A stretch of 64,000 nt of DNA from an uncultured Planctomycetia bacterium (GTDB lineage Bacteria; Omnitrophota; Gorgyraeia; Duberdicusellales; Duberdicusellaceae): NCBI GenBank assembly GCA_964634935.1, contig CAZWJT010000002.1, positions 10,570 through 74,569 of the forward strand. Direction: 5' to 3'. Made by a program: the position numbers and the translations under genes. Below the pieces are notes generated by a model, which worked only from the letters and a program-made list of their open reading frames with translations, was not told the origin of the DNA and did not search any database. The stretch's first letter is position 1. Every line of letters starts with the position of its first letter. Positions 3-17,485 of the stretch are shown in pieces.

Positions 3-545
3 CTGCCATGCCGAATGAGTTATTTAGGAGATTTTCCTCAAGTTCCCGGAATCGTTGAAGACGGAAAAACTTTTCTTGAGAACGCGGCAAAAAAGGCAAT
101 GAGCATGTCCAGGATTTCCAGCCTATGGACTCTTGCTGATGATTCTGGTCTTGAAGTCAGGGCCTTGAACGGAAAACCGGGAGTTTTCTCTGCTCGATTC
201 GCAGGGACCCATGCGTCGTATGACGCGAACAATCGAAAATTACTGCGACAACTGCGCGGTGTTGCCAGAAAAGAACGGAACGCAAGATTTGTTTGTTGCG
301 TAGCGCTTGCTCGAAGCGGGATGATGGTGAAGCATTTTATGGGATTTTTGAACGGAATGATTGCTGAAGCGCCAGTCGGCAAGAATGGCTTCGGATATGA
401 TCCGGTATTCTTTCTGCCGAAATACCAGAAAACGCTGGCTGAACTTTCGCCGGAATTCAAAAACTCGATCAGCCATCGTTTCAAGGCTTTTATTCGTTTC
501 AAAGAATATTTTTTAAAATATTTGGAGCATCCGGATAAAATCTGA
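3..545 (+). CDS. rdgB: RdgB/HAM1 family non-canonical purine NTP (dITP/XTP) pyrophosphatase, 5'-truncated at the window edge
   Basis: C-terminal part of the Ham1 fold: LADDSGLEVRALNGKPGVFSARFAG, FGYDPVFF. The ORF is open to the window start. Confidence 0.8.
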   Translation: MPCRMSYLGDFPQVPGIVEDGKTFLENAAKKAMSMSRISSLWTLADDSGLEVRALNGKPGVFSARFAGTHASYDANNRKLLRQLRGVARKERNARFVCCVALARSGMMVKHFMGFLNGMIAEAPVGKNGFGYDPVFFLPKYQKTLAELSPEFKNSISHRFKAFIRFKEYFLKYLEHPDKI

Positions 546-598
546 TATAATCTGTTGCCTGTCGCGGATAGTTGTTATTCGATGGGTATTCTATGGTT

Positions 599-673
599 CG
601 GGGCGTGGCTCAGCTTGGCTAGAGCGCTTGGTTTGGGACCAAGATGTCGGAGGTTCAACTCCTCTCGCCCCGA
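599..673 (+). tRNA. tRNA-Pro (anticodon UGG); CCA not encoded
   Basis: Cloverleaf read by hand: 7-bp acceptor CGGGGCG/CGCCCCG, GCTCAG D-loop, anticodon loop TTTGGGA, T-loop GGTTCAACTCC, discriminator A. Confidence 0.8.
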
Positions 674-837
674 CTTTATCTTGATTTAATGCAAAAATTT
701 TCATTTTTAGGGGTGGGGGCGGTTTTCTGGTAACGTTACGGATGAAATAAAACGGTAATAGCTCGCGACTTATCAGAATAACTTGACAAGAGCTGTTTCA
801 GGATAGCGCTCAAAAATAGCGAGGTTGTACCGGTCAT

Positions 838-911
838 GCGCCTGTAGCTCAAACGGATAGAGCATCTGCCTTCTAAGCAGGTGGTTGGCAGTTCGATTCT
901 GCCCAGGCGCG
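838..911 (+). tRNA. tRNA-Arg (anticodon UCU); CCA not encoded
   Basis: Acceptor GCGCCTG/CAGGCGC, D-loop AGCTCAAACGGATAGAGC, anticodon loop CTTCTAA, T-arm GGCAGTTCGATTCTGCC, discriminator G. Confidence 0.8.
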
Positions 912-915
912 TTTT

Positions 916-2193
916 ATGAGCGCAGCACCGAAGAATCAAAACTGCGATATGATCAACAATAAAACCTTCAAAAAAAATCTCATTTTTTTCCTTTTTGGAT
1001 GTGTTATTTTCTATGGGGGTTTATCAATATTTCTTAATACTGCAGGTAAAAACAGACTAAATAAATTGCTCTGTGAATCTCTCGGCGAGCAGATTACTTT
1101 TCGGCGAGCTTTCTTTCTTCCTTTTCTTACTCTTCGGATAACGGGAGTTGTCACTTCGGATGCCGCGATTGAGGAACTTGTTGTAAGTCCGAATATCAGC
1201 AGCTTTTTTTCCGGCAAATTCGGCTTGCATGCCCTTTTAATCAAGCATCCAAGAATACTGATCACACGGAACAAGGATGGTTTTAAAATTCCTTTTCGGA
1301 ATTTGCTTGAAAGAAAGCTGCTCAAGCAGAGGGCGGCAGGGAATTCTGAAACGTCAGAGAGCGCGGAGCCTGTCCGCGATCGAGGAAAATCTTCCAAGCC
1401 AGCTGAATTTTTCTGCGATAAACTTCTCGTTGTAAACGGCGCTCTTGAAGTACGAGATGAAAGCGCCGGGAAAGAAAGATTCTTTGAGCTTCGGGGTATC
1501 CAGATTTCAATTTCTTCATTTCATCCGTCAGCAAACTCGGTATGTAAATTTTCCGTAAACGCACACCTCAAAACAGTTTCGCAGGGAATAAATGATTTCA
1601 TTGATTTTTCCGGCTGGGTTAATTTCCCTAAAAAAGCGATGCAGGCACAATGTCAGATAAAAAGTATCCCTTACCATGATGTGGCTTTTATTCTTCCGCA
1701 TTTTCTTCAGACTGACGCCCTGGGAATCCAGAATGCAGTTTTTTCTTTTGACGCCAAGATGAATTCCAAAGATAATGAACTGGTGATGAACTGTCTTGTG
1801 TTTTTGGATCAATACGTCTTGCAGTCTGAATCAGGCAGTATTTCCCAGGGAGTTCTTTTGCAAAGCCTCATCCGGTTGTTTCACGAAAAAGGCAAGACAG
1901 CCCCTTTTGAATTTACCGTGAAGACAAAATTTGATAATCCCCGGATAGATTTAAACCAGATTGGCAATCAGGCACTTTCACAGATTGGGTCAATAACTTT
2001 TATCGTCGGGAAAGAGGCGATGAAAAAAGCAGGCTCAAACGCAAAAGAGGTTGGGATAAAAGCAGCTGATACAATAAAGAAGGCCGCTCAAGAAATTTCC
2101 GATTCTCCTCGGGAGGCGATCCGCATTGCCGATGATTTTATGAATGCGGTGATCAGCACAAAGCCGGCTGAAGAGAATGCCACCAGCCAGTAA
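916..2193 (+). CDS. Hypothetical membrane-anchored protein (N-terminal TM helix; possibly AsmA/DUF748-like); true start may be ATG 949
   Basis: Long ORF starting 5 nt after tRNA-Arg. Hydrophobic LIFFLFGCVIFYGGLSIFL segment near the N terminus. No confident family match by eye. Confidence 0.45.
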   Translation: MSAAPKNQNCDMINNKTFKKNLIFFLFGCVIFYGGLSIFLNTAGKNRLNKLLCESLGEQITFRRAFFLPFLTLRITGVVTSDAAIEELVVSPNISSFFSGKFGLHALLIKHPRILITRNKDGFKIPFRNLLERKLLKQRAAGNSETSESAEPVRDRGKSSKPAEFFCDKLLVVNGALEVRDESAGKERFFELRGIQISISSFHPSANSVCKFSVNAHLKTVSQGINDFIDFSGWVNFPKKAMQAQCQIKSIPYHDVAFILPHFLQTDALGIQNAVFSFDAKMNSKDNELVMNCLVFLDQYVLQSESGSISQGVLLQSLIRLFHEKGKTAPFEFTVKTKFDNPRIDLNQIGNQALSQIGSITFIVGKEAMKKAGSNAKEVGIKAADTIKKAAQEISDSPREAIRIADDFMNAVISTKPAEENATSQ

Positions 2194-2255
2194 GCGCACG
2201 AAGAAACTTTACAATCGGTTTTTTTTGTATATAGTATACAGTAAGGAGTACCCAT

Positions 2256-2666
2256 ATGAGTCATGTCTATCATGGTCCAGAACGGAGAAATTTTAAGCGG
2301 GTTAAAGTTAATCTTATCGTAGTTTATCGGGAAGATGCGCCGCTCGATGTGCATATCCGGGCAAGCGGTGTTGATTACCAGGCGTCGATGGTTGATATCA
2401 GTGAAGGCGGAATGTCAATTTTAACCGAGGCAAATATTGCGGTTTCTACGACACTCTGGATAAAATTTTCGCTCCTTGACCGTAAAGACAAAGGGGTTGA
2501 TTTCTATGGAACAATGGAGCTGAAAGGCAAGGTTTTGAGCAATATTTTACTTGAAGGAGATACCCACCGCCTCGGCATCCAGTTTTTCAGCGTTGAAGAA
2601 AAAGATAAGTCCGATATCGCCCACTTTGTAGAAATTATCGATCAGCGTTTCAATCCCGGAAGTTAA
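2256..2666 (+). CDS. PilZ domain protein (c-di-GMP binding)
   Basis: RRNFKR..(c-di-GMP switch) and DISEGGMSI match the PilZ RxxxR / DxSxGG motifs. RBS AAGGAG 8 nt upstream. Confidence 0.7.
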   Translation: MSHVYHGPERRNFKRVKVNLIVVYREDAPLDVHIRASGVDYQASMVDISEGGMSILTEANIAVSTTLWIKFSLLDRKDKGVDFYGTMELKGKVLSNILLEGDTHRLGIQFFSVEEKDKSDIAHFVEIIDQRFNPGS

Positions 2667-2798
2667 TCCGCAATATTTTTTTGTTCTGAAAACCAGAGAA
2701 TAAGTTTATTGTTTGACAAAAGCCGTTTCTTTTATACAATAGAAACGTTTCCCGGCAAAAAAACAAATACACTTTAAAAACTTGATGCAGCAACTTTT

Positions 2799-4535
2799 AT
2801 GATTCTCCAGACACGGCAATGTACTCTGCTCGTCCTCATTTTACTTCTTTGCGTTCCGGTTTTTGGAGCTGAAGTATACTATCTGGGCCAGAATTCTTCC
2901 GGGGTCTCCGAAAAGACAACAAATCCTCGCTATTCCCTACAACAACGCTTCGCCGACTTTTTCACTTCACTCCAATCGCCCCAGAAAAACAATGAGAGTT
3001 CCGGGTATTTGGGTGGAACATTTATGCAGTCCGTTACGTGGAATGATATTGATGGCAATACTTCAAAATCCTACCTTGAGCAAGGGACAGACTATCTTAC
3101 CGAAGCGAATCTCAATATGCTTGAAAAGCTCGGAGGTGATTATCATTTTGAGGGGCAGTGGTTTTTGCGGAAAACTGATGACCGGAGGATTGAACCTCGC
3201 CGAGATGTGCGCCTAAAACAAGTTGACTTGCGGGTGTCAAACGATGAAAATCTATACCAGTTCGGTGATTTTTACGCTGACTTCTCACAATTTGTGCTTG
3301 GATCAAGTTTGGAAGGTTTTAATATTGATCTGCGGCCGGAAAAAAATCAGCACTATCAGTTTGTAACCGCCCGAAAGAGTAAGGCCGATATCGCGGCAGA
3401 TCTTTTTCAGAGGAATGTTTTTGGCTTTAAGGCCGACCGATATTTTCTTCAAGATTCAGAAATATTCTCGAACTTGCGTTTTGGTTTTCAGGCTGCCAGC
3501 AGCCAGGACGACAGCTCAACGTTACCCGCGCCGAATAGCACAAAGGATTTGCGCAATACCGTAATCGGATTTGACGGAGAGGTAGCGTTTCAGAGGGGTC
3601 CGGCAGTGCAGTATGAGTATGCCCGTAGTATGTATCTGGAGCATGAAGACTCTGCAACCGGGCATGATACTGATTTCGGGAGTGCCTTCCGAATCCAGCC
3701 TTCCTGGAATCTCGGAAAAACAAATTTACGATACCTTTATTATTACGGCCAGCCGGGATTCTATTCAGATGCCGGGTCATCGATGGCAGACAAGATTCAG
3801 CATCAACTGAGCATTGACCATCGTTTCAGCGATCGCTTGAGCGTGACGGTCAGTGAAAATTACTATTGGGATCATCTAACCGGCAGCACCTTAACCAAGC
3901 GGACGTATAATAATGAGAAGTATCTAAACCTAAACATCGTTCCATTTGCTTGGCGGACCAGCTTGTTTTTACGGCCGTATGTTAATTATCTGGCAAAAGA
4001 TTCGGATGATGAAATTAATTCCGTAGAGTCTCGTACGGTTACCACAGGAATCAATATGAATGATCGCTTGAATGAACATACGACATGCGGGTTAGGGTAT
4101 GAGTACCGGTCTTTTACTGATCAGGCCGCGAAAACTTCTTCCGAAACATTTCATCGGATCAAAGGCGACATCGCGCAGGATTTTATTTTTTTAAAACGGC
4201 GCCTGTACTATTCATTTGGTCCGATCGTGGATATTCGGAATCGCAAAGGCGATGACGATAAGGATGTTCACACGAGCATCGATTGGAATCTTCAGTATGA
4301 TCTGACTCCGGGAACCACGATGCGGATGGGCCACACCATCGCTGATACCAACAGCGCGACCCCCGACGGTGATTACTTGAACAATCGCGGATTTTGGGAA
4401 TTTGATTTTTTGATCAATAAGGAACGTTCGGCGCATTTTGTGCTTCGCAGCGAACGGAACCATTATATCAATGGGAATGGGGCGCAGAGTTATAAGGAGC
4501 TTCGGGTGATTTCGAAACTCGTGGTGAATTTCTGA
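2799..4535 (+). CDS. Outer-membrane beta-barrel protein (signal peptide, C-terminal Phe)
   Basis: N-terminal signal peptide LLVLILLLCVPVFGAEV. Alternating amphipathic pattern. Terminal ...KLVVNF. Stop overlaps the next start (TGATG). Confidence 0.55.
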   Translation: MILQTRQCTLLVLILLLCVPVFGAEVYYLGQNSSGVSEKTTNPRYSLQQRFADFFTSLQSPQKNNESSGYLGGTFMQSVTWNDIDGNTSKSYLEQGTDYLTEANLNMLEKLGGDYHFEGQWFLRKTDDRRIEPRRDVRLKQVDLRVSNDENLYQFGDFYADFSQFVLGSSLEGFNIDLRPEKNQHYQFVTARKSKADIAADLFQRNVFGFKADRYFLQDSEIFSNLRFGFQAASSQDDSSTLPAPNSTKDLRNTVIGFDGEVAFQRGPAVQYEYARSMYLEHEDSATGHDTDFGSAFRIQPSWNLGKTNLRYLYYYGQPGFYSDAGSSMADKIQHQLSIDHRFSDRLSVTVSENYYWDHLTGSTLTKRTYNNEKYLNLNIVPFAWRTSLFLRPYVNYLAKDSDDEINSVESRTVTTGINMNDRLNEHTTCGLGYEYRSFTDQAAKTSSETFHRIKGDIAQDFIFLKRRLYYSFGPIVDIRNRKGDDDKDVHTSIDWNLQYDLTPGTTMRMGHTIADTNSATPDGDYLNNRGFWEFDFLINKERSAHFVLRSERNHYINGNGAQSYKELRVISKLVVNF

Positions 4536-4987
4536 TGAAAAGAACATTCATCTGCATGATCACGGTGAATCTTTTGCTTGCAGGCTGTGCTGGTGCGCCT
4601 GTAGCGTCCATCCAGCGTACCGAAGAAAAAAAGAATGATTTTGTGCTCGCCGAAAAGGTTGTTCGCGACCTGTTTGATATCTACCAGGATTTTACCATGA
4701 AGAAATTCTCGGATGCCGTAGCAGATGATTTTGTTCCGATGCGCAGCGATTTTATCAATACCGCATCGAGGAATACCAGTAAAACCGTTCTTGTGGAAGT
4801 TACCTTTTCTTTGGAGCAGGTTTTGTCCAACAAGGATACGTTGGCAATAGAAATAAAGTGGCAAAAACACTCTCAGTCCTATGGCGATACGTCTGTAGGG
4901 TTAACGCAAGGGCGGGCCAATTTGGTATTTAAGAATAAACCAGGCCGGTGGCAGCTTTACCAGGTGAGCGGCGATAATCCATTTTAA
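4535..4987 (+). CDS. Lipoprotein (lipobox LLLAGC)
   Basis: MKRTFICMITVNLLLAGCAG is a lipoprotein signal. Translationally coupled to the upstream barrel gene. Confidence 0.55.
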   Translation: MKRTFICMITVNLLLAGCAGAPVASIQRTEEKKNDFVLAEKVVRDLFDIYQDFTMKKFSDAVADDFVPMRSDFINTASRNTSKTVLVEVTFSLEQVLSNKDTLAIEIKWQKHSQSYGDTSVGLTQGRANLVFKNKPGRWQLYQVSGDNPF

Positions 4988-5013
4988 TAGATGCACGAGA
5001 ACATGAGGAAACA

Positions 5014-8000
5014 ATGAGGTTTAAAACGATATTTTTTCTTACGCTTCTTGGTTTTCATTTCTGCGGTGTTTGTTGTTCTGGCTACGCGGAGGATGAGAGC
5101 CTTTCTCAGAAAGCGGCAAACCAAGTCATCGACAGCCTGCCTGATTTCATAAAAGATGTTCAGGCGATGCGGAATATGACTCCTCAGCAGAAAATCGATT
5201 ACCTTATGGGTGCGGTTGATGACCGGGTGAAAGAGAAGGTAAGCGAGAAATTCAAGGATCAAATCAAAGATAAAGTGAAAGATTTTACAAGAGCTGCTCT
5301 GCGGGCGCGCGCGTTCCAGGAATTCGGCATTCCTCAAATCCGCAATGCATTTGTTTTGGGCGAAGCGGTCAATTGGGGCAAGATTGAATCTGAGATCGTT
5401 TCCAACGTGGACACGAAGATGCGTATGTTTGATGCCGGATGGAAAGCCGCCGAAATCGGTTGGGGAGCCTATGAGGCATACGCGACAGGTGATGCGGTGG
5501 CGGCTGCGAAATCAATTAGCGGCAGCGTCTGTGAACTTTTGGCTGAGGCTTACATTCCAGGGTGGGGATGGATTAAGTTTGGAGCCAAGATGGTCGAAGC
5601 GCTGGGTAATTATGTTCTTTCATATGCCACGGATACCGCTGTTCAGGGTATGCTTGAAGATATGTATGGCATGAAATCGAATCCCTCGGGTTTTGCAGAT
5701 TGGTTGATTAAACAGTCTCCGCAGGCGATTATGGCGGATTTAAACAGTAAATGGGATGATGGCATGGCGTTTGGCTATCTCTGGCAGGGACAGGGAACGG
5801 ATAAAGGCGACGAAGAGATGAAGTCGCGTTTGCAATCGGTTCTTGTCGGGCTGCGTGGCCAGCTTCTTGCGAAAATCAAGGAAGAAGAAGCCAAAGAAAA
5901 AGAGCTTCAGCAGTATATGGAGCAGTATAACCAGGAGACAGAGAAGAGAGCGAAAGACTTGCAGTCTGTTGCAAAACAGGCTACCGATGAAGCAGAAAAG
6001 ATTTTGGCTCCAGTAAAATCGTTCCGCGAGAAATACTACGGGATTCGTAAACAAGAAGTTCAACAGCAGGAAACAAGAATCCGATCGCAAATGGTAGGCG
6101 GAGCAGGAATTGCGTATTCTTCTCTTAACTACAAAGGGCTGGTCAATATCTATAGAAACGCGCTGTCAGAAGTAAAAGACGGGCCTTCGAAAAGCGGCTT
6201 TGATAAAGAGGCCTACGAGCGTATGTACAATGAGTATGGTCCGGCAGTCGCAAAGGAATTAAAACGTTTCAGTGAGACGAATGAAGCGGCAATACAGGCC
6301 GCGGGAAAGGCCATGTGGGCGGCGTGGGGTCCTCAGTTTGATGCGCTCTCAACGCAGATTAACGCGGCTTTTAAGCGAGGGGATCATAGAACAGTAGAAG
6401 CGTTAAATAATCAGCTTGCCGCTTTGAACGCGCGATTTGCTCCGGTGCAACAGGCACACGCGAAAGCAGTCAGCGAGGCGCGCACAAAGATGGCGCTTGA
6501 AGAACAACTTTTGGGGACAGAGTATACGCTCGCAACGCTTGAAGCTACAGAACGAGGAGCAAAATTCGGCATGCGCATCGTAGAGGCGTATAAGTCAATC
6601 AATGATCAGTTGTCGAAAGCAAACACAGAGCTTGGCCTTGGCTTAAAAATATTGCGCGAAAATATCCATAAACTTAACTATCCAGGTTTATGGCGCCATG
6701 CTGGCAGTATTGCCGGAGCTATTGGCGGGGGTTACAGCGGTCCAGCTGAACAGCTGCGTAAAGGTGAGTATGAATTTTTTGTTGGTCCGGGGCATCTTTC
6801 AGGGGCGATTGCCAATGCTGAAGAAGAGGAGCGTAAACTCAAGGCAGACTTAGAAAAACTCAGTGAGCTTGACAGTGCAGAGCGGAAACTCTATGCGGCA
6901 TATCGCCAGGTAGTTGCTAACGCGTTCAATAGCTATCAAGCGGTCACTCCGGAACGGCTTCAGGTAATACATAAACCGCCAATTTTTTCAGGGGACCAGG
7001 AGGAAAATCGCCGCAATTCAATGATTGGTGCGGCTCGAAGTGGTAACCCGTCTTCGTTGGGAGATGAGTATTGGGGGATTGCTGATTTTCCCTATGTATC
7101 GTTTCCTGGAGGATATCCTCGTATTACCGGGACGATCATTTCTTTAGAGTTTTTAAACCAGATCGACAGTTTTCTGGGGAATCCATCTGAGCCGTATCGC
7201 GAGGCCTTAAAAAAGGTACAGCAAGATATTACGGCTTTACGCGGCTGGGCAGAAACTGACGAATTGGCAGGGATTATCAATCAGCTTGGTCCTCGGCTCT
7301 CCAAGCTTTTTGACCAGTACGCTTATTTTGGCGAAGGTATTCCTGGAATAATTTACAAATTTCGCGCGCTTCCTGAAGGAAAAGGCGGGCAGGGAACCAT
7401 TATTGATGAGCGCACCGTGTTGGATACGGCGGGTTATGTGTATCTTCAGGAGATGAAGGAAGTGTGGGAAAAGAATGGGCATCGTGTTGCGCAATTTGCC
7501 AATCTCGCAAAAGGATATGGGAAAGGCCATAACTATCCAAGGGATTATAACCCAAAGCGGTATATCGATAAGCTCCCTACCTGGCAGGGGATTCCTCAAA
7601 AGATTCAGATCTATGAACAGGCAATGATTCAGGCAATAAAAGAGAGTAAAGAGGCGTATGCTCAGGCTCGAAAGCAAATCGATGAGTTGAAAGACCAATT
7701 TGAGCAGTCGCGCAGCGGATTCGGCGCGATGAATCTGAAGAATATGCAGAATGTTCAAAAAACCCTGAAACTCATTATTCAGTACAATCTTGTTGCTCCA
7801 GGGTATACGGCAATGAAAGATGAGATTCTTCAGTTTGAAAAAGATATGGAAGAAGGAATCGCAACCTGGTTGGAAGAACAGAAAAAAAAGAATGAAGAAT
7901 ACCAGCGTCGGCAGGCAGAAGAAGCCAAATTCCAGGCGGAGGAGGCCCGCAAACAGGAAGAGGCAAGAAATCAGGATGCTTTAAAGCGGACCAATCCGGC

Positions 8001-9246
8001 TGAATACTATGGCTATCGAGTGGTGAGTAGCCGTCTGAATACATACTCGGTTGATGGTGTTTCCGGAGATATTATTGTTACTCGTGACAAGCTTGTTCAG
8101 GGGCAGCTGCATATTGACGCACAATTGAGCCATACAGATAAGGCAAAGACGCTTCTTTTCTCAGAAGATGGAGGAAGGACTTGGAAAGAAATACCACTAA
8201 GCGCGAACATCAGGTATTCGTTTTATCCGATGCCAAACAGGCTTTACAATCCTTTTGTCCAGATTAAAACCGAAGATCTTCTTGTAGTCAATCTCAAGCT
8301 TATTCCCAGCGCGAACGGGATTATCTATAAGGATGAAGATTTTAACCAGCAGGTAGTAGCCGCAGTTAAAGCGCTTGCCGAAGCATACGAGCGCCGGGAT
8401 TTATCGGGTTTTAGCGACCTTATTTCTCGGAATTATGCGGGAAATAAGACATTTCTCGAAGAAGGCGTTCGGTTTGATTTTGATCTTTTTCTCAATATTT
8501 CTTTGAAAATTTACATCAATCGCATTGAACAACGCGGAGATCGATTTGTCGTTGAAACCAAGTGGGATAAAAGCCAAACACCACGTCAGACAGGTCAGAC
8601 TCAAAAGACAACCGGACGAACCACGATTATGTTTGTAGTAGAGGATGGTAAACTCAAAGTTCAAAACCTGCGAGGAGATCTTCTCTATGCGACACTTTCT
8701 CCTGAAATTGCTCAAGCGAGTGGATTGTCTTCCGCCAAGGTTGAAGAAATCCGCACTGCTCGTGATGAGCGTAATCCGATACAACCGGGCGCGGGAACTA
8801 CAGATGATGATGGAGGGATCGCTTCTCCGGCGGCCACTTTGACTGTTACCACAAAAAGCTTGGAAGATGATTACGGTACCGGCGGCATGCCGGATCAGCA
8901 CATAGACTTTGCTACGGGTAATGTTATTTTAGGCGGAGCAGGAGGCGATATCGGACTTGAAGTGAATGGTTTCTGGGCACAAATAGGTGCCGGGATTAAA
9001 GAAGTCGGCACTTCATTCAATGCGACTACCGACGCTTCCGGAGTAACAGCGTTGGATAATAGCGTTTTTGGTCTTACAACAGGCAAAGTCTATATCTTTT
9101 TGACTACGGGTGGTTACTACGGTAAGCTTGAAGTGATTTCTTGGGATGAAGAAGACAGAGATCTTGATACTGTTTTTGATACCTCAATTGTGCAATTTCG
9201 CTATGCTGTCCAGACAAATGGGACATCCGATGTAACTACTCAGTAA
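5014..9246 (+). CDS. Giant (1410 aa) secreted coiled-coil protein, function unknown
   Basis: Signal peptide MRFKTIFFLTLLGFHFCGVCCSGYA. Long K/E/Q-rich heptad stretches (e.g. EEQKKKNEEYQRRQAEEAKFQAEEARKQEEARNQ). Gly/Thr-rich beta-like C-terminal 250 aa. RBS GAGGAAACAATG. Confidence 0.6.
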   Translation: MRFKTIFFLTLLGFHFCGVCCSGYAEDESLSQKAANQVIDSLPDFIKDVQAMRNMTPQQKIDYLMGAVDDRVKEKVSEKFKDQIKDKVKDFTRAALRARAFQEFGIPQIRNAFVLGEAVNWGKIESEIVSNVDTKMRMFDAGWKAAEIGWGAYEAYATGDAVAAAKSISGSVCELLAEAYIPGWGWIKFGAKMVEALGNYVLSYATDTAVQGMLEDMYGMKSNPSGFADWLIKQSPQAIMADLNSKWDDGMAFGYLWQGQGTDKGDEEMKSRLQSVLVGLRGQLLAKIKEEEAKEKELQQYMEQYNQETEKRAKDLQSVAKQATDEAEKILAPVKSFREKYYGIRKQEVQQQETRIRSQMVGGAGIAYSSLNYKGLVNIYRNALSEVKDGPSKSGFDKEAYERMYNEYGPAVAKELKRFSETNEAAIQAAGKAMWAAWGPQFDALSTQINAAFKRGDHRTVEALNNQLAALNARFAPVQQAHAKAVSEARTKMALEEQLLGTEYTLATLEATERGAKFGMRIVEAYKSINDQLSKANTELGLGLKILRENIHKLNYPGLWRHAGSIAGAIGGGYSGPAEQLRKGEYEFFVGPGHLSGAIANAEEEERKLKADLEKLSELDSAERKLYAAYRQVVANAFNSYQAVTPERLQVIHKPPIFSGDQEENRRNSMIGAARSGNPSSLGDEYWGIADFPYVSFPGGYPRITGTIISLEFLNQIDSFLGNPSEPYREALKKVQQDITALRGWAETDELAGIINQLGPRLSKLFDQYAYFGEGIPGIIYKFRALPEGKGGQGTIIDERTVLDTAGYVYLQEMKEVWEKNGHRVAQFANLAKGYGKGHNYPRDYNPKRYIDKLPTWQGIPQKIQIYEQAMIQAIKESKEAYAQARKQIDELKDQFEQSRSGFGAMNLKNMQNVQKTLKLIIQYNLVAPGYTAMKDEILQFEKDMEEGIATWLEEQKKKNEEYQRRQAEEAKFQAEEARKQEEARNQDALKRTNPAEYYGYRVVSSRLNTYSVDGVSGDIIVTRDKLVQGQLHIDAQLSHTDKAKTLLFSEDGGRTWKEIPLSANIRYSFYPMPNRLYNPFVQIKTEDLLVVNLKLIPSANGIIYKDEDFNQQVVAAVKALAEAYERRDLSGFSDLISRNYAGNKTFLEEGVRFDFDLFLNISLKIYINRIEQRGDRFVVETKWDKSQTPRQTGQTQKTTGRTTIMFVVEDGKLKVQNLRGDLLYATLSPEIAQASGLSSAKVEEIRTARDERNPIQPGAGTTDDDGGIASPAATLTVTTKSLEDDYGTGGMPDQHIDFATGNVILGGAGGDIGLEVNGFWAQIGAGIKEVGTSFNATTDASGVTALDNSVFGLTTGKVYIFLTTGGYYGKLEVISWDEEDRDLDTVFDTSIVQFRYAVQTNGTSDVTTQ

Positions 9247-9376
9247 TCTTTTCATCGCACGACATTTGCTCGTGGTATTTTAGAGAAATCTTCCTTTACA
9301 GCTCGCATAAAATTTGATAAAGTTATACAGATTTCTTAGGCCCTCTATACGTTGATTTTTTGGAATACGATAATAC

Positions 9377-9455
9377 GGTGGGTGTAGCTCAGTTTGGCTA
9401 GAGCACTTGACTGTGGCTCAAGATGTCGAGGGTTCAAATCCCTTCACCCACCCCA
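9377..9455 (+). tRNA. tRNA-His (anticodon GUG) with extra G-1 and encoded 3' CCA
   Basis: G(-1) precedes acceptor GTGGGTG/CACCCAC. Anticodon loop CTGTGGC. T-arm GAGGGTTCAAATCCCTT. Discriminator C followed by CCA in the DNA. Confidence 0.8.
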
Positions 9456-9462
9456 TATTTAA

Positions 9463-9518
9463 CCCTCATGCGAACCCGGACTCTTCGGAGCCACAAACGC
9501 ATGAGGGTTTTTCTTTTT
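9463..9518 (+). terminator. Hairpin plus T-run immediately after tRNA-His
   Basis: CCCTCATGCG ... CGCATGAGGG (10-bp stem, large loop) followed by TTTTTCTTTTT. Confidence 0.5.
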
Positions 9519-9553
9519 CTGGTGGGGAAGCGCTTGAGTTTGCTCCCCAAGAG

Positions 9554-10084
9554 ATGGTCGAGTTTATCAAATATCTGAAGAGCTATTCTTCGATATGGCC
9601 GAGAACTTACTTTTGTGAATTTCCTTTCTTTATCTCCATTACCAATTTTAAACGAAAAATATGCTTTGGAACACGGCCCGAAGACTTGGCCGATATGGGG
9701 ATTATTCATCAAAAAGCATGGGAAAGGCATCAGGCGCATTTAAATCGTCTGTCCCGATTTCCGCTTGATAAGGCAGAATATTATCAAAGGTTGAAGGAGA
9801 TGCATGCGGTGAATACCGTTCGTGGGCTTTCGACAATAACAGGGGAGGACTGGTCGTATATTGCTAAGATTCTTAGAGTTTTATTATTGCCGGAACCAAT
9901 TAAAGATTTTTTGAGGAATAATAAGAGCAATTCTGAGATTGTGAAGTTCTTCACTCTACGTCGTCTTCTTAATATTGTGCGGCAACGTGAGGAAAGGCTT
10001 CAATTAAGCTATTTCAGTGAGCTTATGGAAAAATATGGGATGGCGTTTATCGACTCTTGGACGCAGGATAACATCAAAAGATGA
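9554..10084 (+). CDS. Hypothetical protein (first gene of the island downstream of tRNA-His)
   Basis: ORF track 9407..10084 begins inside the tRNA. The first ATG downstream of the tRNA terminator is 9554 (MVEFIKYL...). No recognisable domain. Confidence 0.4.
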   Translation: MVEFIKYLKSYSSIWPRTYFCEFPFFISITNFKRKICFGTRPEDLADMGIIHQKAWERHQAHLNRLSRFPLDKAEYYQRLKEMHAVNTVRGLSTITGEDWSYIAKILRVLLLPEPIKDFLRNNKSNSEIVKFFTLRRLLNIVRQREERLQLSYFSELMEKYGMAFIDSWTQDNIKR

Positions 10085-10119
10085 ATCAAATCGCCGTGCC
10101 TAAATGTCCATTCCGTATG

Positions 10120-10147
10120 AATGTCCGCTCATTAGCGGACATTTTCT
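10120..10147 (+). terminator. Stem-loop after the hypothetical gene
   Basis: AATGTCCGCT-catt-AGCGGACATT followed by TT. The T-run is short, so this is a weak call. Confidence 0.3.
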
Positions 10148-10388
10148 AGCCAGCAGACATTTATAATAAAAGCGTAGGAACTGAAATTCCAATTAAGTTT
10201 ATTCACTTTTTCTGTATTCGGAAAAACAAGTAATATTTTGGGCTTCAAACGGCTCAAATTAGCCTGAAAAATAGTCTATTCCTGCAAAAATTGATTATTT
10301 TGCAGGCTTACGATAAAATGCCTTCGTTTTAGGTATTTGAGAATTTTTTTGATATTTTAGCCATAACATCGTGCAAGAAAAAAAAGAA

Positions 10389-10417
10389 TTGACAAATATT
10401 TGTTAAAATGGTATTAT
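10389..10417 (+). promoter_or_regulatory. Sigma70-like promoter TTGACA-N17-TATTAT for the ATPase/TOPRIM operon, overlapped by the near-palindrome TTGACAAATATTTGTTAA
   Basis: The -35 is 10389..10394 and the -10 is 10412..10417. The -35 lies inside an imperfect 9-9 inverted repeat, which could be an operator. Confidence 0.45.
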
Positions 10418-10462
10418 TACATTGTCAATAACGCTCAAAATAAGTATTTCAGGAGGGATAAA

Positions 10463-11689
10463 ATGATTCATTCATTTACGTTCAAAAATTTTTGTTCCTT
10501 TGCAAATAATGCCACAATATTGTTTCAGGATATTCGCAAAGGAGTAGAAACTAAGAGTAATATGTTTTGCGACACCTCGTTAGGCGACCGTGTAAGCAAA
10601 GTTATGATCGTGGTTGGGCCTAACGCGTCTGGTAAGACAAGCGCCCTTAAGGCGTTGGCTTTTCTTAGTTGGTTTGTGCGAAATTCCTTTGTTGGGCTGG
10701 AAGGGGAAAAGGAGCCAATCCCTGTCGATAATTTCGCTTTCTCAGAGGATAAAGAAAGCGTGTCGGAATTCGAATTGGTTTTTGATCACAAAGATGTTGT
10801 TTATAAATATATCCTGCATTTATGCAAAACCCATGTCATAAAGGAAGAGCTATACCGCAAAGAAGATACCCAGCATTTTAATTATATATTCAAGAGAAAT
10901 TGGAACGCACAGGCGGGGAGTTCTGAGATTGTTCAGCGCATAAATTTAAAGACAGAAATTCTTAAAGAAATCTTGCGCAAGAACGTGTCTTTAATTGCCG
11001 CGTCAGTCGCGATAAAGAACGATTTTCTTACAGATATTGCCGGGTTCTGGGAGAAGATCATTAGCAACGTTAATCGCATGGGAAAATCATGGGACACTTC
11101 TTCGCTTGGCGAACGCGGCTTATTTGAAGCCACAGAGGCCTATAATAAAAATCAAAATCTTTTTGTTAAAGTTGTTCAGTTTTTGAAAGACATTGATCTT
11201 GGTTTAGAGGGAGTGTTGATCGAAGAGGGAGAAGCTCGAAATCCTAAAACCGGAGAAGCGAAGAAAATTTATTTGCCATATGGCGTGCATAAGGTTAAGG
11301 ACAAGCAATATAAATTACCGTTAGCTTTTGAATCCAGCGGCACAAAAAATATGTTTGTGCTTTTGCATTTTCTTTTGCCAGCTATTGAGCAGGGCGGGCT
11401 TGCGGTAATAGACGAGCTTGAGATCGATTTGCATCCTCACGCCGTCCCGCAAATAATCGAGTTGTTCGCTAACCCAGCCACCAACCCTAAAAATAGCCAA
11501 CTCCTTTTTACTTCACATTCCCTGGAGGTTCTTAACCATCTTGAGAAGGAACAAATTGTTCTGGTTGAGAAAAAACAGGAGTGTAAAAGTGAGCTTTATC
11601 GGCTTGATGAATTGAAAGGAATACGTCGCGACGATAACATCTACGCAAAATATATGGCCGGTGCTTATGGCGCGGTTCCAAACATATAA
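10463..11689 (+). CDS. AAA_21/AAA_15 (ABC/OLD-type) ATPase, AbiLi/RloA/AriA-like
   Basis: Walker A VVGPNASGKTSALKAL. C-terminal ESSGTKNMFVLLHFL ... AVIDELEIDLHP ... LLFTSHSLEVL signatures. The ORF track starts at TTG 10400, but ATG 10463 has a strong RBS (AGGAGGG). Confidence 0.75.
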   Translation: MIHSFTFKNFCSFANNATILFQDIRKGVETKSNMFCDTSLGDRVSKVMIVVGPNASGKTSALKALAFLSWFVRNSFVGLEGEKEPIPVDNFAFSEDKESVSEFELVFDHKDVVYKYILHLCKTHVIKEELYRKEDTQHFNYIFKRNWNAQAGSSEIVQRINLKTEILKEILRKNVSLIAASVAIKNDFLTDIAGFWEKIISNVNRMGKSWDTSSLGERGLFEATEAYNKNQNLFVKVVQFLKDIDLGLEGVLIEEGEARNPKTGEAKKIYLPYGVHKVKDKQYKLPLAFESSGTKNMFVLLHFLLPAIEQGGLAVIDELEIDLHPHAVPQIIELFANPATNPKNSQLLFTSHSLEVLNHLEKEQIVLVEKKQECKSELYRLDELKGIRRDDNIYAKYMAGAYGAVPNI

Positions 11690-11705
11690 ATAAGGGAGCC
11701 GCGAT

Positions 11706-12248
11706 ATGACGCCAAGACGAATAAAGCCGACCAGAAACACAAAAACAACTGTTCTCATTGTAGGCGAAGGCCCTACCGAGAAAGCATTTTTGCAATATCT
11801 CAAGGAGTTATACGTCGCGTGTGATTATGCCTGTGCCGTAAAAGTAGAATGCGGTTCTGGCGGCTCACCTCGCTGTGTAGTGCAAAAAGCCATACGTTTA
11901 CGAGGTAGCAGGGCTTATGATAAGTGTTACGTGCTTTTTGACGCGGATAGGCCGCTTGAAACTGATTATAAATTATCTGATCGCATGAATAAGCGGCCTC
12001 GCGTTGAAGTTCTCAAGGCCACGCCATGCATAGAGGGGTTATTTTTGGCAATATTGAAACACCCCGGATTTTCTCAAGGAAGCGCCGCGTCACATGATTG
12101 CAAACGGGATTTCCATGCCGGTTACATATCCGAAGACAAAAAGATGGACAAACGGTCATATGGGGGGAAGTTTCCAAAAACGATACTGGATAGCCAAAGA
12201 GCGCAGGTTGCAGAGTTAGACCTTATTTTAAAGGCAATGCAGGTTTAG
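11706..12248 (+). CDS. RloB/DUF4276-like TOPRIM protein (AbiLii/OLD-nuclease-like partner)
   Basis: N-terminal basic tail then VLIVGEGPTEKAFLQYL (TOPRIM Glu) and VLFDADRP (DxD). Sits 16 bp after the ATPase gene; RBS AAGGGAG. Confidence 0.6.
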   Translation: MTPRRIKPTRNTKTTVLIVGEGPTEKAFLQYLKELYVACDYACAVKVECGSGGSPRCVVQKAIRLRGSRAYDKCYVLFDADRPLETDYKLSDRMNKRPRVEVLKATPCIEGLFLAILKHPGFSQGSAASHDCKRDFHAGYISEDKKMDKRSYGGKFPKTILDSQRAQVAELDLILKAMQV

Positions 12249-12316
12249 TGAATTTGCTTCAGGCGGTGTCGTCAGCAGGACGTTGTGGGTACCGGGAGCA
12301 ATAAACGGAGGATTTT

Positions 12317-12664
12317 ATGGGTGAAATAAAGGAACTTACAGAGAAAATAAAAGAATTCCGTGACGAGCGAGATTGGAAACAATTTCATAATCATAAGGAT
12401 ATGTCTCTCTCACTAATGCTTGAGGCAGCTGAAGTTTTAGAGCACTTTCAGTGGAAATCACAGAGCGAAGTCGAAAAACATGGAAATGCATGCAAAAATG
12501 AAATAGCTGAAGAGCTCGCTGATGTTGCTATGTACCTATTTGAGCTCGCAGATAATCTTGGTATTAATTTGTCCGATGCTATTGAGCATAAGCTGACAAA
12601 AAATGCTAAAAAGTACCCTGTAGAGAAAGCTAAAGGTAAACACACAAAATACGATAAATTATGA
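12317..12664 (+). CDS. MazG-like nucleoside triphosphate pyrophosphohydrolase (small all-alpha NTP-PPase)
   Basis: IKEFRDERDWKQFHNHKDMSLSLMLEAAEVLEHFQWK and EELADVAMYLFELA are typical of the MazG/dUTPase-like fold. RBS GGAGG. Its stop overlaps the next start (ATGA). Confidence 0.7.
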   Translation: MGEIKELTEKIKEFRDERDWKQFHNHKDMSLSLMLEAAEVLEHFQWKSQSEVEKHGNACKNEIAEELADVAMYLFELADNLGINLSDAIEHKLTKNAKKYPVEKAKGKHTKYDKL

Positions 12665-15075: not shown

Positions 15076-15085
15076 TAGGTTAGGC

Positions 15086-15790
15086 ATGATATTAAAACCC
15101 GGTGAAATAGTTTCTTATTTAACAATGTGCCAGCACGAAGGGGTAAACCTTCAGCGGGGCATGAATTTCCGGTTAAAGGGCGGGCTAAGTGTCATTTTAA
15201 TGAGCTTAAGAAAGAATGCCCCGTATGCTGATAGAGTCGAGGATGATGGTGGCGTTCTGATCTATGAAGGCCACGATGTTCCGAAATATCAGGGGTTAAA
15301 GCAAAATCCAAAACAAATTGATCAGCCAGGGCTTACTCCCTCAGGGGCATTAACCGAAAATGGCAAGTTTTTCAAAGCGGCCGAAGGATATAAGAAAAAT
15401 AATGGCATTCCAGAGCTCGTTAAAGTTTATGAGAAGATACGTAACGGCATTTGGACGTATTCTGGGATTTTTGAATTGATTGATGCATGGCAGGAAGCTG
15501 CTGGGAAGCGAAAGGTATTTAAATTCAAACTAAAAATTACCGATCGGTCAGAGGCCGATCGCGACCCTGCAAATAAGGACGACTTGGATCATACGCGCGT
15601 AATACCCACAGATGTTAAATTGGCGGTATGGGAGCGCGATAAAGGACGATGTGTTGTATGCAATTCGGCAAACAACTTGCACTTTGATCACATTATCCCA
15701 TTCTCAAAGGGCGGTACATCTTTAAAAGCAGAAAATATTCAATTGATGTGTGCAAGGCATAATCTAAATAAACGAGATAAATTAATTTAG
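15086..15790 (+). CDS. SRA(YDG)-like domain fused to an HNH endonuclease: putative type IV modification-dependent restriction enzyme
   Basis: C-terminal HNH: CVVCNSANNLHFDHIIPFSKGG...NIQLMCARHN. The N-terminal GGLSVILMS...YADRVEDDGGVLIYEGHD resembles the SRA motif S-V-L-SGG...Y-DD-D-G...YTG-GG. 10 bp after the DUF2075 gene. Confidence 0.55.
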   Translation: MILKPGEIVSYLTMCQHEGVNLQRGMNFRLKGGLSVILMSLRKNAPYADRVEDDGGVLIYEGHDVPKYQGLKQNPKQIDQPGLTPSGALTENGKFFKAAEGYKKNNGIPELVKVYEKIRNGIWTYSGIFELIDAWQEAAGKRKVFKFKLKITDRSEADRDPANKDDLDHTRVIPTDVKLAVWERDKGRCVVCNSANNLHFDHIIPFSKGGTSLKAENIQLMCARHNLNKRDKLI

Positions 15791-15970
15791 ATTCGATAAA
15801 CTTTTGATAAGGAAACGAATTAAATGGCATTGGTTTGTTGATCATTGGGTTTTGTTAGCTCAAAATTCGGGGAGCTTCACATTTTTTTGCTCCTGTGGCT
15901 CTAGACTGCGCGGTTTCTAATACCGCGAGGCCACCCCAGCTTAAAAATTTCTGCCAAATTTTTAAGCGTC

Positions 15971-16148
15971 CCAAAGCCATCCCGGGAAATATCCACAGGA
16001 AATTTCCCGGGTATTCAAACGGCGAGGGGCAGGATTACATATCGCTACTTCCAATGTCTTCCTGAGCATATCAATCAGATCTTCTGAATATCAAATGGCA
16101 GAGGGTTTTGTCTGGTAAAGGAAAACCTTTTATAATATAATGTTTTAT
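15971..16148. repeat. 178-bp direct repeat, copy 1 (identical to 18686..18863); contains a palindrome and a consensus promoter
   Basis: Base-by-base comparison of the two copies shows identity over 178 bp. Internal inverted repeat CCCGGGAAAT-N11-ATTTCCCGGG at 15981..16011. Confidence 0.9.
16108..16136 (+). promoter_or_regulatory. Sigma70 promoter TTGTCT-N17-TATAAT at the 3' end of repeat copy 1
   Basis: -35 16108..16113, 17-nt spacer, -10 TATAAT 16131..16136. Points toward the gene starting at 16323. Confidence 0.6.
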
Positions 16149-17470: not shown

Positions 17471-17485
17471 TGCGAGAGGTTAATT

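What the first reader, a model, noticed from the sequence alone, without database searches (positions are those of the whole stretch)
2256..9246. PilZ protein followed by an outer-membrane barrel, a lipoprotein and a 1410-aa secreted coiled-coil protein: candidate cell-surface or envelope-spanning assembly
The barrel and lipoprotein genes overlap (TGATG), and the giant gene follows 27 bp later with a good RBS. The giant protein has a signal peptide, hundreds of residues of K/E/Q-rich heptad repeats (TolA/SMC-like) and a Gly/Thr-rich beta C terminus. No catalytic motif is visible. Such triads (barrel, lipoprotein, giant fibrous protein) are typical of surface fibres, S-layer anchors or trans-envelope tethers. 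The upstream PilZ gene hints at c-di-GMP control.
Basis: partly seen in the sequence, partly recalled or inferred. Interest (0 to 1): 0.5.

Follow-up and report, generated by a model that had tools for sequence, protein, structure and literature searches.

The report
Omnitrophota barrel–NTF2–giant protein envelope cassette
Three of the four flagged genes form a gene cassette conserved across Omnitrophota relatives (a very wide outer-membrane barrel, a small partner protein and a large exported protein carrying a copy of that partner's fold) that matches no described system and probably anchors or exports large envelope or surface proteins.

Summary
All four genes are real. PilZ (2256-2666) is a motif-complete c-di-GMP receptor. 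It has its own promoter-like site and is not a conserved neighbour of the other three.

The core is a three-gene unit, 2799-9246.
- **Barrel.** A 578-aa protein modelled with high confidence as a 26-stranded outer-membrane barrel. Its loops are at most 14 residues, so no loop can plug it, and its charged lumen is highly conserved.
- **Small partner.** A translationally coupled 150-aa lipoprotein.
- **Giant.** A 1410-aa protein with a signal peptide.

New finding: the lipoprotein is a free-standing copy of an NTF2-fold domain inside the giant's conserved C-terminal module (beta-sandwich, NTF2, conserved linker, HmuY-like tip). In all 30 related loci with sequence downstream of the barrel, an NTF2-bearing gene follows at once. 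This holds at 33% barrel identity and with unrelated flanks. Large clients number 1-3 and carry three unrelated N-terminal head types on one C-terminal module.

No Pfam, NCBIfam, PDB or literature match defines the system. All named relatives trace to Omnitrophota, apart from a few oddly labelled MAG bins.

Best reading (inferred): the barrel is a docking or translocation pore and the NTF2 fold is its plug or dock. The "TolA/SMC-like" coiled coil is overstated. The c-di-GMP link is weak.

The parts
2256..2666 (+). Single-domain PilZ protein (136 aa). It is a neighbour, not a conserved member of the cassette.
   Evidence: Pfam PilZ E 4e-12. RRNFKR and DISEGG motifs. Own promoter-like site at 2208-2235. 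No PilZ near the cassette in 27 other loci (26 scanned by profile; L001-L004, L032 and L033 by precomputed Pfam tables).
2713..2740 (+). Sigma-70-like promoter candidate for the three-gene unit (TTGACA-16-TACAAT).
   Evidence: It is the best match in 500-9500, at 11 of 12 positions. This is a consensus match only. The number of such sites in the region is not above the shuffled expectation.
2799..4535 (+). 26-stranded outer-membrane beta-barrel (578 aa) with no loop long enough to plug it.
4535..4987 (+). Small exported NTF2-fold partner (150 aa). In this genome it is a lipoprotein (LLAG|C). Its start overlaps the barrel's stop codon.
   Evidence: Translation. BLASTP to giant aa 1081-1222, E 3e-5. 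hhalign of the family against the giant's C-terminal module gives 97.1% probability, E 5e-11. Present straight after the barrel in 27 of 30 loci. A lipobox is present in about 15 of 24 homologues and a plain signal peptide in the others.
5014..5088 (+). Signal peptide of the giant protein (aa 1-25, predicted cleavage after GYA).
   Evidence: Read from the sequence. The only strongly hydrophobic stretch lies in aa 1-25. Homologues carry equivalent signal peptides.
5089..6303 (+). Family-specific N-terminal head domain (aa 26 to about 430) with a conserved IPGWG...YATDT...GTDKGD core.
   Evidence: A full HMMER scan of 1.84 billion representatives gives only 62 hits, nearly all at the N-terminus of ~880-1470-aa proteins or in short fragments. 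Conservation profile. It is head type 1 of three.
6304..7998 (+). Variable middle region (aa about 431-995) with short heptad-like helical pieces and unassigned segments.
   Evidence: Heptad-like segments at aa 455-491, 521-555, 593-642, 862-912 and 919-958. A long helix at aa 961-993 is modelled at pLDDT above 90. No structure was predicted for most of this region.
8020..8331 (+). Beta-sandwich domain (aa 1003-1106), the first domain of the conserved C-terminal module.
   Evidence: AF2 model, pLDDT 91-97. Conserved in all clients and present in stand-alone 380-460-aa proteins.
8341..8676 (+). NTF2-fold domain (aa 1110-1221), the most conserved part of the giant and a paralogue of the small lipoprotein.
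8701..8829 (+). Two short helices (aa 1230-1253) followed by a conserved but disordered Pro/Gly linker (aa 1254-1272, RNPxQPGAGTTxDxGG).
   Evidence: pLDDT falls below 50 at model residues 295-313. The motif is nearly invariant in the alignment.
8845..9213 (+). C-terminal beta tip domain (aa 1278-1400), HmuY-like here. Homologues carry other Ig-type domains in its place.
9258..9274 (+). Terminator-like hairpin 12 nt after the giant's stop codon.
   Evidence: This is a weak consensus match with 5 pairs.
9378..9455 (+). tRNA-His, which marks the right-hand boundary. A low-GC defence-gene island follows.

Best explanation
The unit 2799-9246 is an outer-membrane cassette seen almost only in Omnitrophota.

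Shown here:
- A 26-stranded barrel with loops too short to plug it and a conserved charged lumen.
- A translationally coupled small exported NTF2-fold protein, lipid-anchored in this genome.
- A Sec-exported 1410-aa client whose conserved C-terminal module contains a paralogous NTF2 domain.

Inferred mechanism:
- The barrel is the docking or translocation pore of the outer membrane.
- The NTF2 fold is the element that binds, and probably plugs, the barrel.
- The small protein fills that site constitutively or acts as a gate.
- Each client uses its own NTF2 copy, flanked by a beta-sandwich and a conserved flexible linker, to dock.
- The client therefore ends up anchored at or threaded through the outer membrane, with the variable tip on one face and the variable head and stalk on the other.

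The client would then be an anchored, adhesin-like or spacer-like envelope protein of these ultra-small, host-dependent bacteria. PilZ is at most an occasional local regulator.
For: Barrel:
- 26 strands at pLDDT 89.4.
- Loops of at most 14 aa, so no loop can occlude so wide a barrel. The other 26-stranded barrels I know of (LptD, MtrB) hold a partner protein in the lumen (my own knowledge).
- Lumen residues are far more conserved than lipid-facing ones, and many of the conserved ones are charged.

Homology of the small protein to giant aa 1108-1225: BLASTP E 3e-5, reciprocal phmmer hits, hhalign 97.1%. The fold is NTF2.

Strict linkage:
- In 30 of 30 loci with downstream sequence, an NTF2-bearing ORF follows the barrel directly.
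- 21 of 22 loci with at least 3.8 kb downstream have at least one large or mid-sized client, and 8 have two or more.
- Flanking genes are unrelated in every locus examined.
- The triad persists at 33-34% barrel identity.

Modularity points to the C-terminal module as the shared address:
- Three unrelated head types sit on one C-terminal module.
- Stand-alone C-terminal-module proteins of 380-460 aa exist. In L004 and L024 one follows the barrel directly in place of the small protein (in L018 a full-length client does).
- The tip domain is swapped among HmuY-like, Kre9/He_PIG/Big_7-type and a third type.

Export and transcription:
- Signal peptides are present on all three products and on their homologues.
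- The unit has its own promoter-like and terminator-like sites.
Against: - No physical interaction was tested.
- The topology is unknown: which side the head or tip faces, and whether the client leaves the periplasm at all.
- About a third of the small-protein homologues lack a lipobox, so lipid anchoring is not essential.
- L012 has the barrel and small protein but no recognisable client within 10 kb.
- NTF2 folds are generic ligand- or peptidoglycan-binding modules elsewhere (Pgp2, Csd6 and Bd1075 appear among the structural hits). Barrel binding is therefore one of several possible roles.
- The promoter and terminator calls are consensus matches whose number in the region does not exceed the shuffled expectation.
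Confidence: 0.45

Rival explanations
1. Dedicated secretion. The barrel is a client-specific outer-membrane translocon, working like two-partner secretion or Slam/T11SS. It exports the giants, and perhaps the small lipoprotein, to the cell surface or medium. The C-terminal module is the secretion signal. The clients are released rather than staying bound to the barrel.
For: - One barrel serves 1-3 adjacent clients with a shared C-terminal module, as is usual for translocon-plus-cargo loci.
- The tip domains are Ig/HmuY-type folds common on cell surfaces.
- At 578 aa the barrel is about the size of a TpsB (my own knowledge).
Against: - There are no POTRA, ShlB, TPS or DUF560 signatures.
- A 26-strand barrel is far wider than known single-chain protein-export barrels of type V or Slam systems.
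- The constant small NTF2 partner has no counterpart in those systems.
- Nothing shows release of the client.
Confidence: 0.2
2. Periplasmic scaffold or tether between the outer membrane and peptidoglycan. The NTF2 domains bind peptidoglycan, as proposed for the NTF2 domains of Pgp2, Csd6 and Bd1075. The small lipoprotein ties the outer membrane to the wall. The roughly 1400-aa clients are periplasmic spacers of fixed length anchored at the barrel. The analogy is to OmpM/SlpA or Thermotoga Omp-alpha with Omp-beta.
For: - Pgp2, Csd6 and Bd1075 are among the structural neighbours.
- Client length is held at about 1340-1555 aa across the two main head types, as expected for a ruler or spacer.
- The middle region contains helical segments.
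- The small protein is a lipoprotein here.
Against: - There is no recognised peptidoglycan-binding domain (SLH, OmpA_C, LysM) in any component.
- The similarity to Pgp2-type proteins is at fold level only, 9-14% identity.
- The variable tip and head domains suggest diversifying, outward-facing functions.
- A third of the small proteins are not lipidated.
Confidence: 0.15
3. Transport of a lipid or other hydrophobic ligand. The NTF2-fold proteins carry a small hydrophobic or glycolipid ligand, as MlaC does. The wide barrel inserts or exports it, as LptDE does. The giants bridge the periplasm.
For: - The barrel has 26 strands, as LptD does (LptD strand count from my own knowledge).
- NTF2 cones commonly bind small molecules, and MlaC has an NTF2-like domain (PMC12153054, found).
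- A DUF748/AsmA-like gene lies upstream in this window.
Against: - The conserved NTF2 residues are largely polar or charged: R, D, W, K, Q, T, E, N.
- The DUF748 neighbour is not conserved.
- There is no OstA or LptD signature.
- This model does not explain the variable heads and tips.
Confidence: 0.08
4. There is no joint function. The barrel is an ordinary porin and the neighbouring genes are merely co-transcribed.
For: - No interaction has been shown.
- The barrel gives only generic structural matches.
Against: - Barrel and NTF2-bearing gene are adjacent in 30 of 30 loci with unrelated flanks.
- The stop and start codons overlap.
- The small protein and the clients are paralogous.
- The lumen is highly conserved and charged.
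Confidence: 0.05

Closest known systems
LptD-LptE (LPS translocon)
   Same: A 26-stranded outer-membrane barrel that needs a small lipoprotein partner, which in LptDE sits inside the lumen as a plug. This is the best analogy for the barrel plus small-protein pair.
   Different: - No OstA/beta-jellyroll N-terminal domain and no LptD or LptE family match.
- The partner has an NTF2 fold, not the LptE fold.
- The partner's fold is duplicated in large client proteins, which LptDE lacks.
MtrCAB / PioAB porin-cytochrome complexes
   Different: - The giant has no CXXCH haem motifs and only four Cys, three of them in the signal peptide; the small protein has two, one the lipobox Cys.
- No MtrB_PioB family match.
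- The clients are helical multidomain proteins, not cytochromes.
Two-partner secretion (TpsB/TpsA, type Vb) and Slam/T11SS
   Same: An outer-membrane barrel of roughly 580 aa is encoded next to one or more large exported proteins that share a conserved recognition module.
   Different: - TpsB has 16 strands plus two POTRA domains and recognises an N-terminal TPS domain.
- Slam is a 14-strand DUF560 barrel with TPR repeats.
- Here the barrel has 26 strands with only about 45 residues N-terminal to it.
- The shared module is C-terminal and built around an NTF2 fold.
- A small NTF2 partner is always present.
Chaperone-usher ushers (FimD/PapC)
   Different: - No usher plug, N-terminal or C-terminal domains.
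- No usher Pfam match.
- No chaperone or pilin genes nearby.
- About 10% sequence identity.
Pfam BBP2_2 (PF10082, putative beta-barrel porin 2)
   Same: This is the only sequence-family signal. One homologue (P0019) just passes the cut-off, at 25.0 bits against 23.7. A second scores E 0.005. Both matches cover only the last 90-140 residues.
   Different: - The window protein and 40 of 42 relatives do not match.
- The Pfam model is 378 positions long, which I take to mean a smaller barrel.
- The similarity is generic strand-level resemblance, not family membership.
NTF2-domain periplasmic proteins (Pgp2, Csd6, Bd1075) and HmuY-family surface lipoproteins (BfrB, Tfo)
   Same: The fold of the client's NTF2 domain and of its C-terminal tip.
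   Different: - There is no L,D-transpeptidase/carboxypeptidase domain, and no Cys in that region of the giant.
- Haem-ligand residues of the HmuY-like tip were not examined.
- Identity is 9-22%.

Membership tests
PilZ domain (c-di-GMP receptor), gene 2256-2666 | Pfam PF07238 match above the gathering score | tested here: met
   46.8 bits against a cut-off of 22.5, E 4e-12.
PilZ domain (c-di-GMP receptor), gene 2256-2666 | RxxxR and (D/N)xSxxG c-di-GMP-binding motifs | tested here: met
   RRNFKR at aa 10-15 and DISEGG at aa 47-52 in the translation. Binding itself was not tested.
Outer-membrane beta-barrel (MBB-type), gene 2799-4535 | Signal peptide, even number of amphipathic antiparallel strands, C-terminal aromatic residue | tested here: met
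   26 strands at pLDDT 89.4. Alternating hydrophobic and polar pattern. The protein ends ...VVNF.
LptD/LptE | LptD (OstA_C) and N-terminal OstA family matches; LptE-fold lipoprotein | tested here: not met
LptD/LptE | 26-stranded barrel with a lipoprotein inside the lumen | tested here: inconclusive
   The strand count matches. Whether the lipoprotein occupies the lumen could not be modelled.
MtrB/PioB porin-cytochrome | Adjacent multihaem (CXXCH) partner and MtrB_PioB family match | tested here: not met
   No CXXCH in the giant. No family hit.
Two-partner secretion (type Vb) | TpsB with POTRA domains and a 16-strand Omp85 barrel; TpsA with an N-terminal TPS (Haemagg_act) domain | tested here: not met
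   No ShlB, POTRA or Haemagg_act hits. The barrel has 26 strands with no periplasmic domains. The conserved client module is C-terminal.
Chaperone-usher | Usher family match with plug domain; adjacent chaperone and pilin genes | tested here: not met
   No Pfam hits. The neighbouring genes are unrelated.
Pfam BBP2_2 (PF10082) | Score above the gathering cut-off over most of the model | tested here: not met
   The window protein gives no hit. Only 1 of 42 relatives reaches the cut-off, on a partial match.
NTF2-like superfamily (giant aa 1110-1221 and the small lipoprotein) | Alpha+beta cone fold: three helices packed on a curved antiparallel sheet | tested here: met
HmuY family (giant aa 1278-1400) | HmuY all-beta fold | tested here: inconclusive
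HmuY family (giant aa 1278-1400) | Haem-coordinating His/Met pair | not tested
   The domain has one His and one Met. Their conservation and position were not examined.
   The longest heptad-like segment is about 70 aa. There are 7 pieces totalling 314 aa, separated by Gly/Pro-containing stretches (ad hoc score). No SMC or TolA family hits.

The most novel reading that the evidence does not exclude
The cassette is a previously unrecognised system for anchoring or exporting outer-membrane proteins, seen so far almost only in Omnitrophota. An NTF2-fold domain serves as the plug or docking element of a 26-stranded barrel. Interchangeable large clients (three head types, several tip types) are mounted on the cell envelope through a common C-terminal NTF2 module. 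They may serve as the contact apparatus of these host-dependent nanobacteria.
Probability: 0.3. Interest if true: 0.75.

Novelty: new variant of a known kind. Interest (0 to 1): 0.58.

Why it matters
- **Cell biology of an uncultured phylum.** Omnitrophota are uncultured, ultra-small and apparently host-dependent, and almost nothing is known about their envelope. The literature concentrates on their much larger giant ORFs, Tad and type IV pili (PMC10066038).
- **A defined target.** This cassette is a compact, conserved set of three proteins with no annotated domain, so it is an experimentally tractable candidate for how these cells mount large proteins on their outer membrane.
- **A possible new principle.** If the NTF2 fold proves to be a barrel plug or dock, that adds a third solution alongside LptDE and MtrCAB for filling a 26-stranded barrel. 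It would also add a new C-terminal address for envelope proteins.
- **Annotation.** The C-terminal module could be used to find and name clients in Omnitrophota metagenome bins.

Tried and rejected
Searches that found nothing useful:
- Pfam and NCBIfam on the barrel, lipoprotein and giant gave no hits.
- Pfam on 42 barrel homologues, 6 type-2 giants and 40 head-domain homologues gave only weak BBP2_2, HmuY and a few Ig-type tip domains.
- PDB sequence-profile searches: none for the barrel, none meaningful for the small protein. For the C-terminal module there were only coiled-coil noise and weak HmuY-like hits.
- Literature searches found no description of this cassette.

Tools that failed or were unavailable:
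- The afdb50 Foldseek library was not available, so no AlphaFold-database neighbours of the barrel were obtained.
- The search for related loci with the 42-sequence alignment failed for lack of a conserved stretch. It worked with 12 sequences.
- Exact look-up of the window's giant for its source record found nothing. Cluster look-up gave no names. The Omnitrophota origin of the window is therefore inferred from its homologues.

Ideas rejected:
- PilZ or the DUF748-like gene as conserved members of the cassette. Both are absent from the other loci.
- A porin-cytochrome reading. There are no haem motifs.
- A continuous TolA/SMC-like coiled coil.
- An L,D-transpeptidase-like reading of the beta-sandwich plus NTF2 pair, prompted by the Bd1075/Csd6/Pgp2 hits. 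There is no Cys in that region and the superpositions have very high rmsd.
Full report
**1. What is in the sequence**

- 2256-2666, 136 aa
- 2799-4535, 578 aa
- 4535-4987, 150 aa
- 5014-9246, 1410 aa

The barrel's TGA stop and the lipoprotein's ATG overlap within TGATG at 4533-4537. The giant starts 26 nt after the lipoprotein's stop, with GAGGA 5 nt upstream.

The PilZ protein is a good Pfam PilZ match (E 4e-12). It carries the RxxxR and DxSxxG motifs.

None of the barrel, lipoprotein or giant matches any Pfam or NCBIfam family.

The region is bounded by tRNA genes: tRNA-Pro and tRNA-Arg on the left and tRNA-His at 9378-9455 on the right. After tRNA-His the GC content falls and a defence-type island begins.

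**2. Transcription unit**

The best sigma-70-like site in 500-9500 (TTGACA-16-TACAAT, 11 of 12 positions) lies at 2713-2740, in the 132-nt gap between PilZ and the barrel. PilZ has its own site at 2208-2235. A hairpin followed by a T-run lies at 9258-9274, just after the giant.

These are consensus matches only. They agree with the comparative data below: the unit is barrel, small protein and giant, and PilZ lies outside it.

**3. The barrel**

AlphaFold2 with 42 homologues gives a confident model (pLDDT 89.4) with 26 beta-strands and about 45 residues between the signal peptide and strand 1.

- Loops alternate between longer ones (6-14 aa) and short ones (2-9 aa). This is the usual pattern of extracellular loops and periplasmic turns. 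None is long enough to fold back and close such a wide barrel.
- Lumen-facing residues are much more conserved than lipid-facing ones (0.67 against 0.50). Forty-seven lumen positions are at least 90% conserved, and many of them are Arg, Asp, Glu or Lys.
- A profile search of PDB sequences finds nothing.
- One homologue just reaches the Pfam BBP2_2 cut-off on its last 90 residues. That is strand-level resemblance, not family membership.

From my own knowledge, the other 26-stranded barrels (LptD, MtrB) hold a partner protein in the lumen. That is the basis for expecting a partner here. It is an inference, not a result.

**4. The small protein and the giant are paralogous**

- BLASTP aligns the lipoprotein with giant aa 1081-1222 (E 3e-5).
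- phmmer finds the same relationship reciprocally in many loci.
- hhalign of the small-protein family against the giants' C-terminal module gives 97.1% probability (E 5e-11) over 118 columns. That covers nearly the whole mature small protein.

The AF2 model of giant aa 960-1410 (pLDDT 84.5) shows this order of elements:

| Element | Residues |
|---|---|
| Long helix | 961-993 |
| Beta-sandwich | 1003-1106 |
| Alpha+beta cone | 1110-1221 |
| Two short helices | 1230-1253 |
| Disordered linker, nearly invariant in sequence (RNPxQPGAGTTxDxGG) | 1254-1272 |
| Beta domain | 1278-1400 |

The final domain resembles HmuY-family lipoproteins:
- PDB profile hit, E 1.5e-3
- Pfam HmuY, E 5e-4, in a paralogue

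**5. Architecture of the rest of the giant**

The signal peptide is the only strongly hydrophobic stretch. There are no haem motifs, and only one Cys lies outside the signal peptide.

Head domain:
- Residues 26 to about 430 form a family-specific head with a conserved IPGWG...YATDT...GTDKGD core.
- An exhaustive HMMER scan of 1.84 billion representative proteins finds it in only 62 clusters. Nearly all full-length hits carry it at the N-terminus of ~880-1470-aa proteins.
- Pfam sees nothing in 40 of these proteins except occasional Ig-type tip domains.

Coiled coil:
- Heptad-like sequence is limited to seven pieces of 30-70 aa, 314 aa in total at the 99th percentile of shuffles (my own crude score).
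- "TolA/SMC-like" therefore overstates it.
- No structure was predicted for aa 1-959, so the middle region is only roughly described.

**6. Comparative genomics**

Family size:
- The giant has 17 relatives in the word-indexed 5.8-billion-protein set.
- The barrel has 91.
- All named relatives trace to Omnitrophota MAGs, apart from a few bins with odd labels (Clostridiales, Alphaproteobacteria, Bathyarchaeia, Planctomycetales). I take these to be mis-binned or auto-labelled. That is an inference.

Linkage was examined in 33 fetched loci:
- Of the 30 loci that carry the barrel with downstream sequence, every one has an NTF2-bearing ORF directly after the barrel.
- In 27 of these it is the roughly 150-aa protein. 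In L004 and L024 it is a 440-460-aa stand-alone C-terminal-module protein, and in L018 a full-length client.
- 21 of 22 loci with at least 3.8 kb downstream carry at least one large or mid-sized client. Eight carry two or three.
- L012 is the exception. It has only the barrel and the small protein.
- Flanking genes differ in every locus.
- The most distant barrels (33-34% identity) still show 578-155-1407 and 577-143-1421 aa.

Modularity:
- Clients fall into three unrelated head types that share one C-terminal module.
- The last domain is swapped among at least three types.
- Client length stays near 1340-1555 aa for the two main head types.

The small protein has a lipobox in about 15 of 24 homologues and a plain signal peptide in the rest. 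Export is therefore conserved but lipidation is not.

**7. The c-di-GMP link**

An iterated profile built from the window's PilZ finds no PilZ within 10 kb of the barrel in 26 other loci. Precomputed Pfam tables agree for L001-L004, L032 and L033. The window's own clade behaves differently:

| Locus | Neighbouring c-di-GMP gene |
|---|---|
| L028 | One PilZ about 220 nt downstream and another upstream, beyond one intervening gene |
| L029 | PilZ about 1.8 kb downstream on the other strand |
| L030 | A convergent REC-EAL gene immediately downstream |

These genes sit in different positions. The L028 PilZ is only 26% identical to the window's, whereas the giants are about 60% identical. I read this as a weak, clade-limited association. 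It suggests occasional regulatory coupling but does not show it.

**8. Most likely mechanism**

Shown:
- A wide barrel that no loop can plug, with a conserved polar lumen.
- An obligately adjacent exported NTF2 partner.
- Clients carrying a paralogous NTF2 domain in a conserved C-terminal module.
- Modular heads and tips.

Inferred:
- The NTF2 fold is the barrel-binding element, acting as plug or dock.
- The small protein fills or gates the barrel.
- Clients dock through their own NTF2 copy and are thereby anchored at or threaded through the outer membrane, with the conserved flexible linker crossing it.
- Variable parts at both ends, together with the Ig/HmuY-type tips, fit an outward-facing recognition or adhesion role. 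That would suit the host-dependent lifestyle proposed for Omnitrophota (PMC10066038).

I put this at 0.45. The rivals are:

| Rival | Confidence |
|---|---|
| Pure secretion translocon | 0.2 |
| Outer membrane to peptidoglycan tether or periplasmic ruler, with NTF2 binding peptidoglycan as in Pgp2-type proteins | 0.15 |
| Lipid or ligand transport | 0.08 |
| No joint function | 0.05 |

The topology is not established. It is unknown which end of the client faces outward, or whether the client leaves the periplasm at all.

**9. Comparison with known systems**

In how it probably works, the closest analogues are LptDE and MtrCAB (a 26-strand barrel filled by a partner), and two-partner secretion and Slam (a barrel encoded next to cargo that shares an address module).

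It is a member of none of them. Each defining sequence or domain feature that could be tested was not met (see the membership table).

The literature searches found no description of this cassette.

**10. Verdict**

- The cassette is a new variant of a known kind of system, a partner-filled outer-membrane barrel with adjacent exported clients. It is built from unrelated parts and seen almost only in Omnitrophota.
- Interest is moderate to good. It is a clean, conserved and testable unit in a phylum with almost no cell biology, but its function rests wholly on inference.

Noticed in passing
window 9456-18436: Directly after tRNA-His (9378-9455) the GC content drops to about 0.36-0.40. A run of + strand genes there looks like a defence island: a ParB-HTH-like ORF, an AAA_21/AAA_15 ATPase with an RloB-like partner, a MazG-like protein, a Schlafen-group-3 helicase fused to an S24 peptidase, an SRA-HNH endonuclease, and three ORFs with no family match. 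Housekeeping genes resume at citrate synthase (18935). No integrase or tRNA-derived direct repeat was looked for.
   Followed up: partly
L028 3183-3614 and 11568-11927; L029 9597-10289 (-); L030 8924-10048 (-): In the window's own clade (giants 58-63% identical in these loci) c-di-GMP genes recur within about 2 kb of the cassette. These are two PilZ genes, one PilZ and one REC-EAL. Their positions and orientations differ and the PilZ genes are not orthologous. No PilZ was detected in the other 27 loci (EAL and GGDEF domains were not screened for there).
   Followed up: partly
window 916-2193: A 425-aa protein with a sub-threshold DUF748 (AsmA-like) match lies between tRNA-Arg and PilZ. It has no counterpart near the cassette in the 27 loci scanned (L001-L027).
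   Followed up: partly
L002 5956-18743; L009, L010, L011, L014, L026: Many loci carry two or three tandem client genes behind one barrel. Client length stays at about 1340-1555 aa even between unrelated head types. This hints at a length constraint, as for a ruler or spacer.
   Followed up: partly
L004 5491-6825 and 7016-12361: This locus has a split architecture. A 444-aa protein consisting only of the C-terminal module follows the barrel. It is followed by a 1781-aa protein that has the type-1 head but no NTF2 module (faint PKD hit).
   Followed up: no
window 4535-4555: The public gene call for the lipoprotein is 143 aa, starting at the second Met (MITVNLLLAGC...), rather than 150 aa. Only the 150-aa start overlaps the barrel's stop codon. 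The lipobox is unaffected.
   Followed up: no
L008 161-3433: A 1091-aa client with a third, unrelated head type lies upstream of the barrel rather than downstream.
   Followed up: no
barrel aa 25-68 (window 2871-3002): The short N-terminal extension of the barrel is conserved (AAEVYYLG after the signal peptide). It also has a helix at aa 47-56 with invariant R50 and D53.
   Followed up: no
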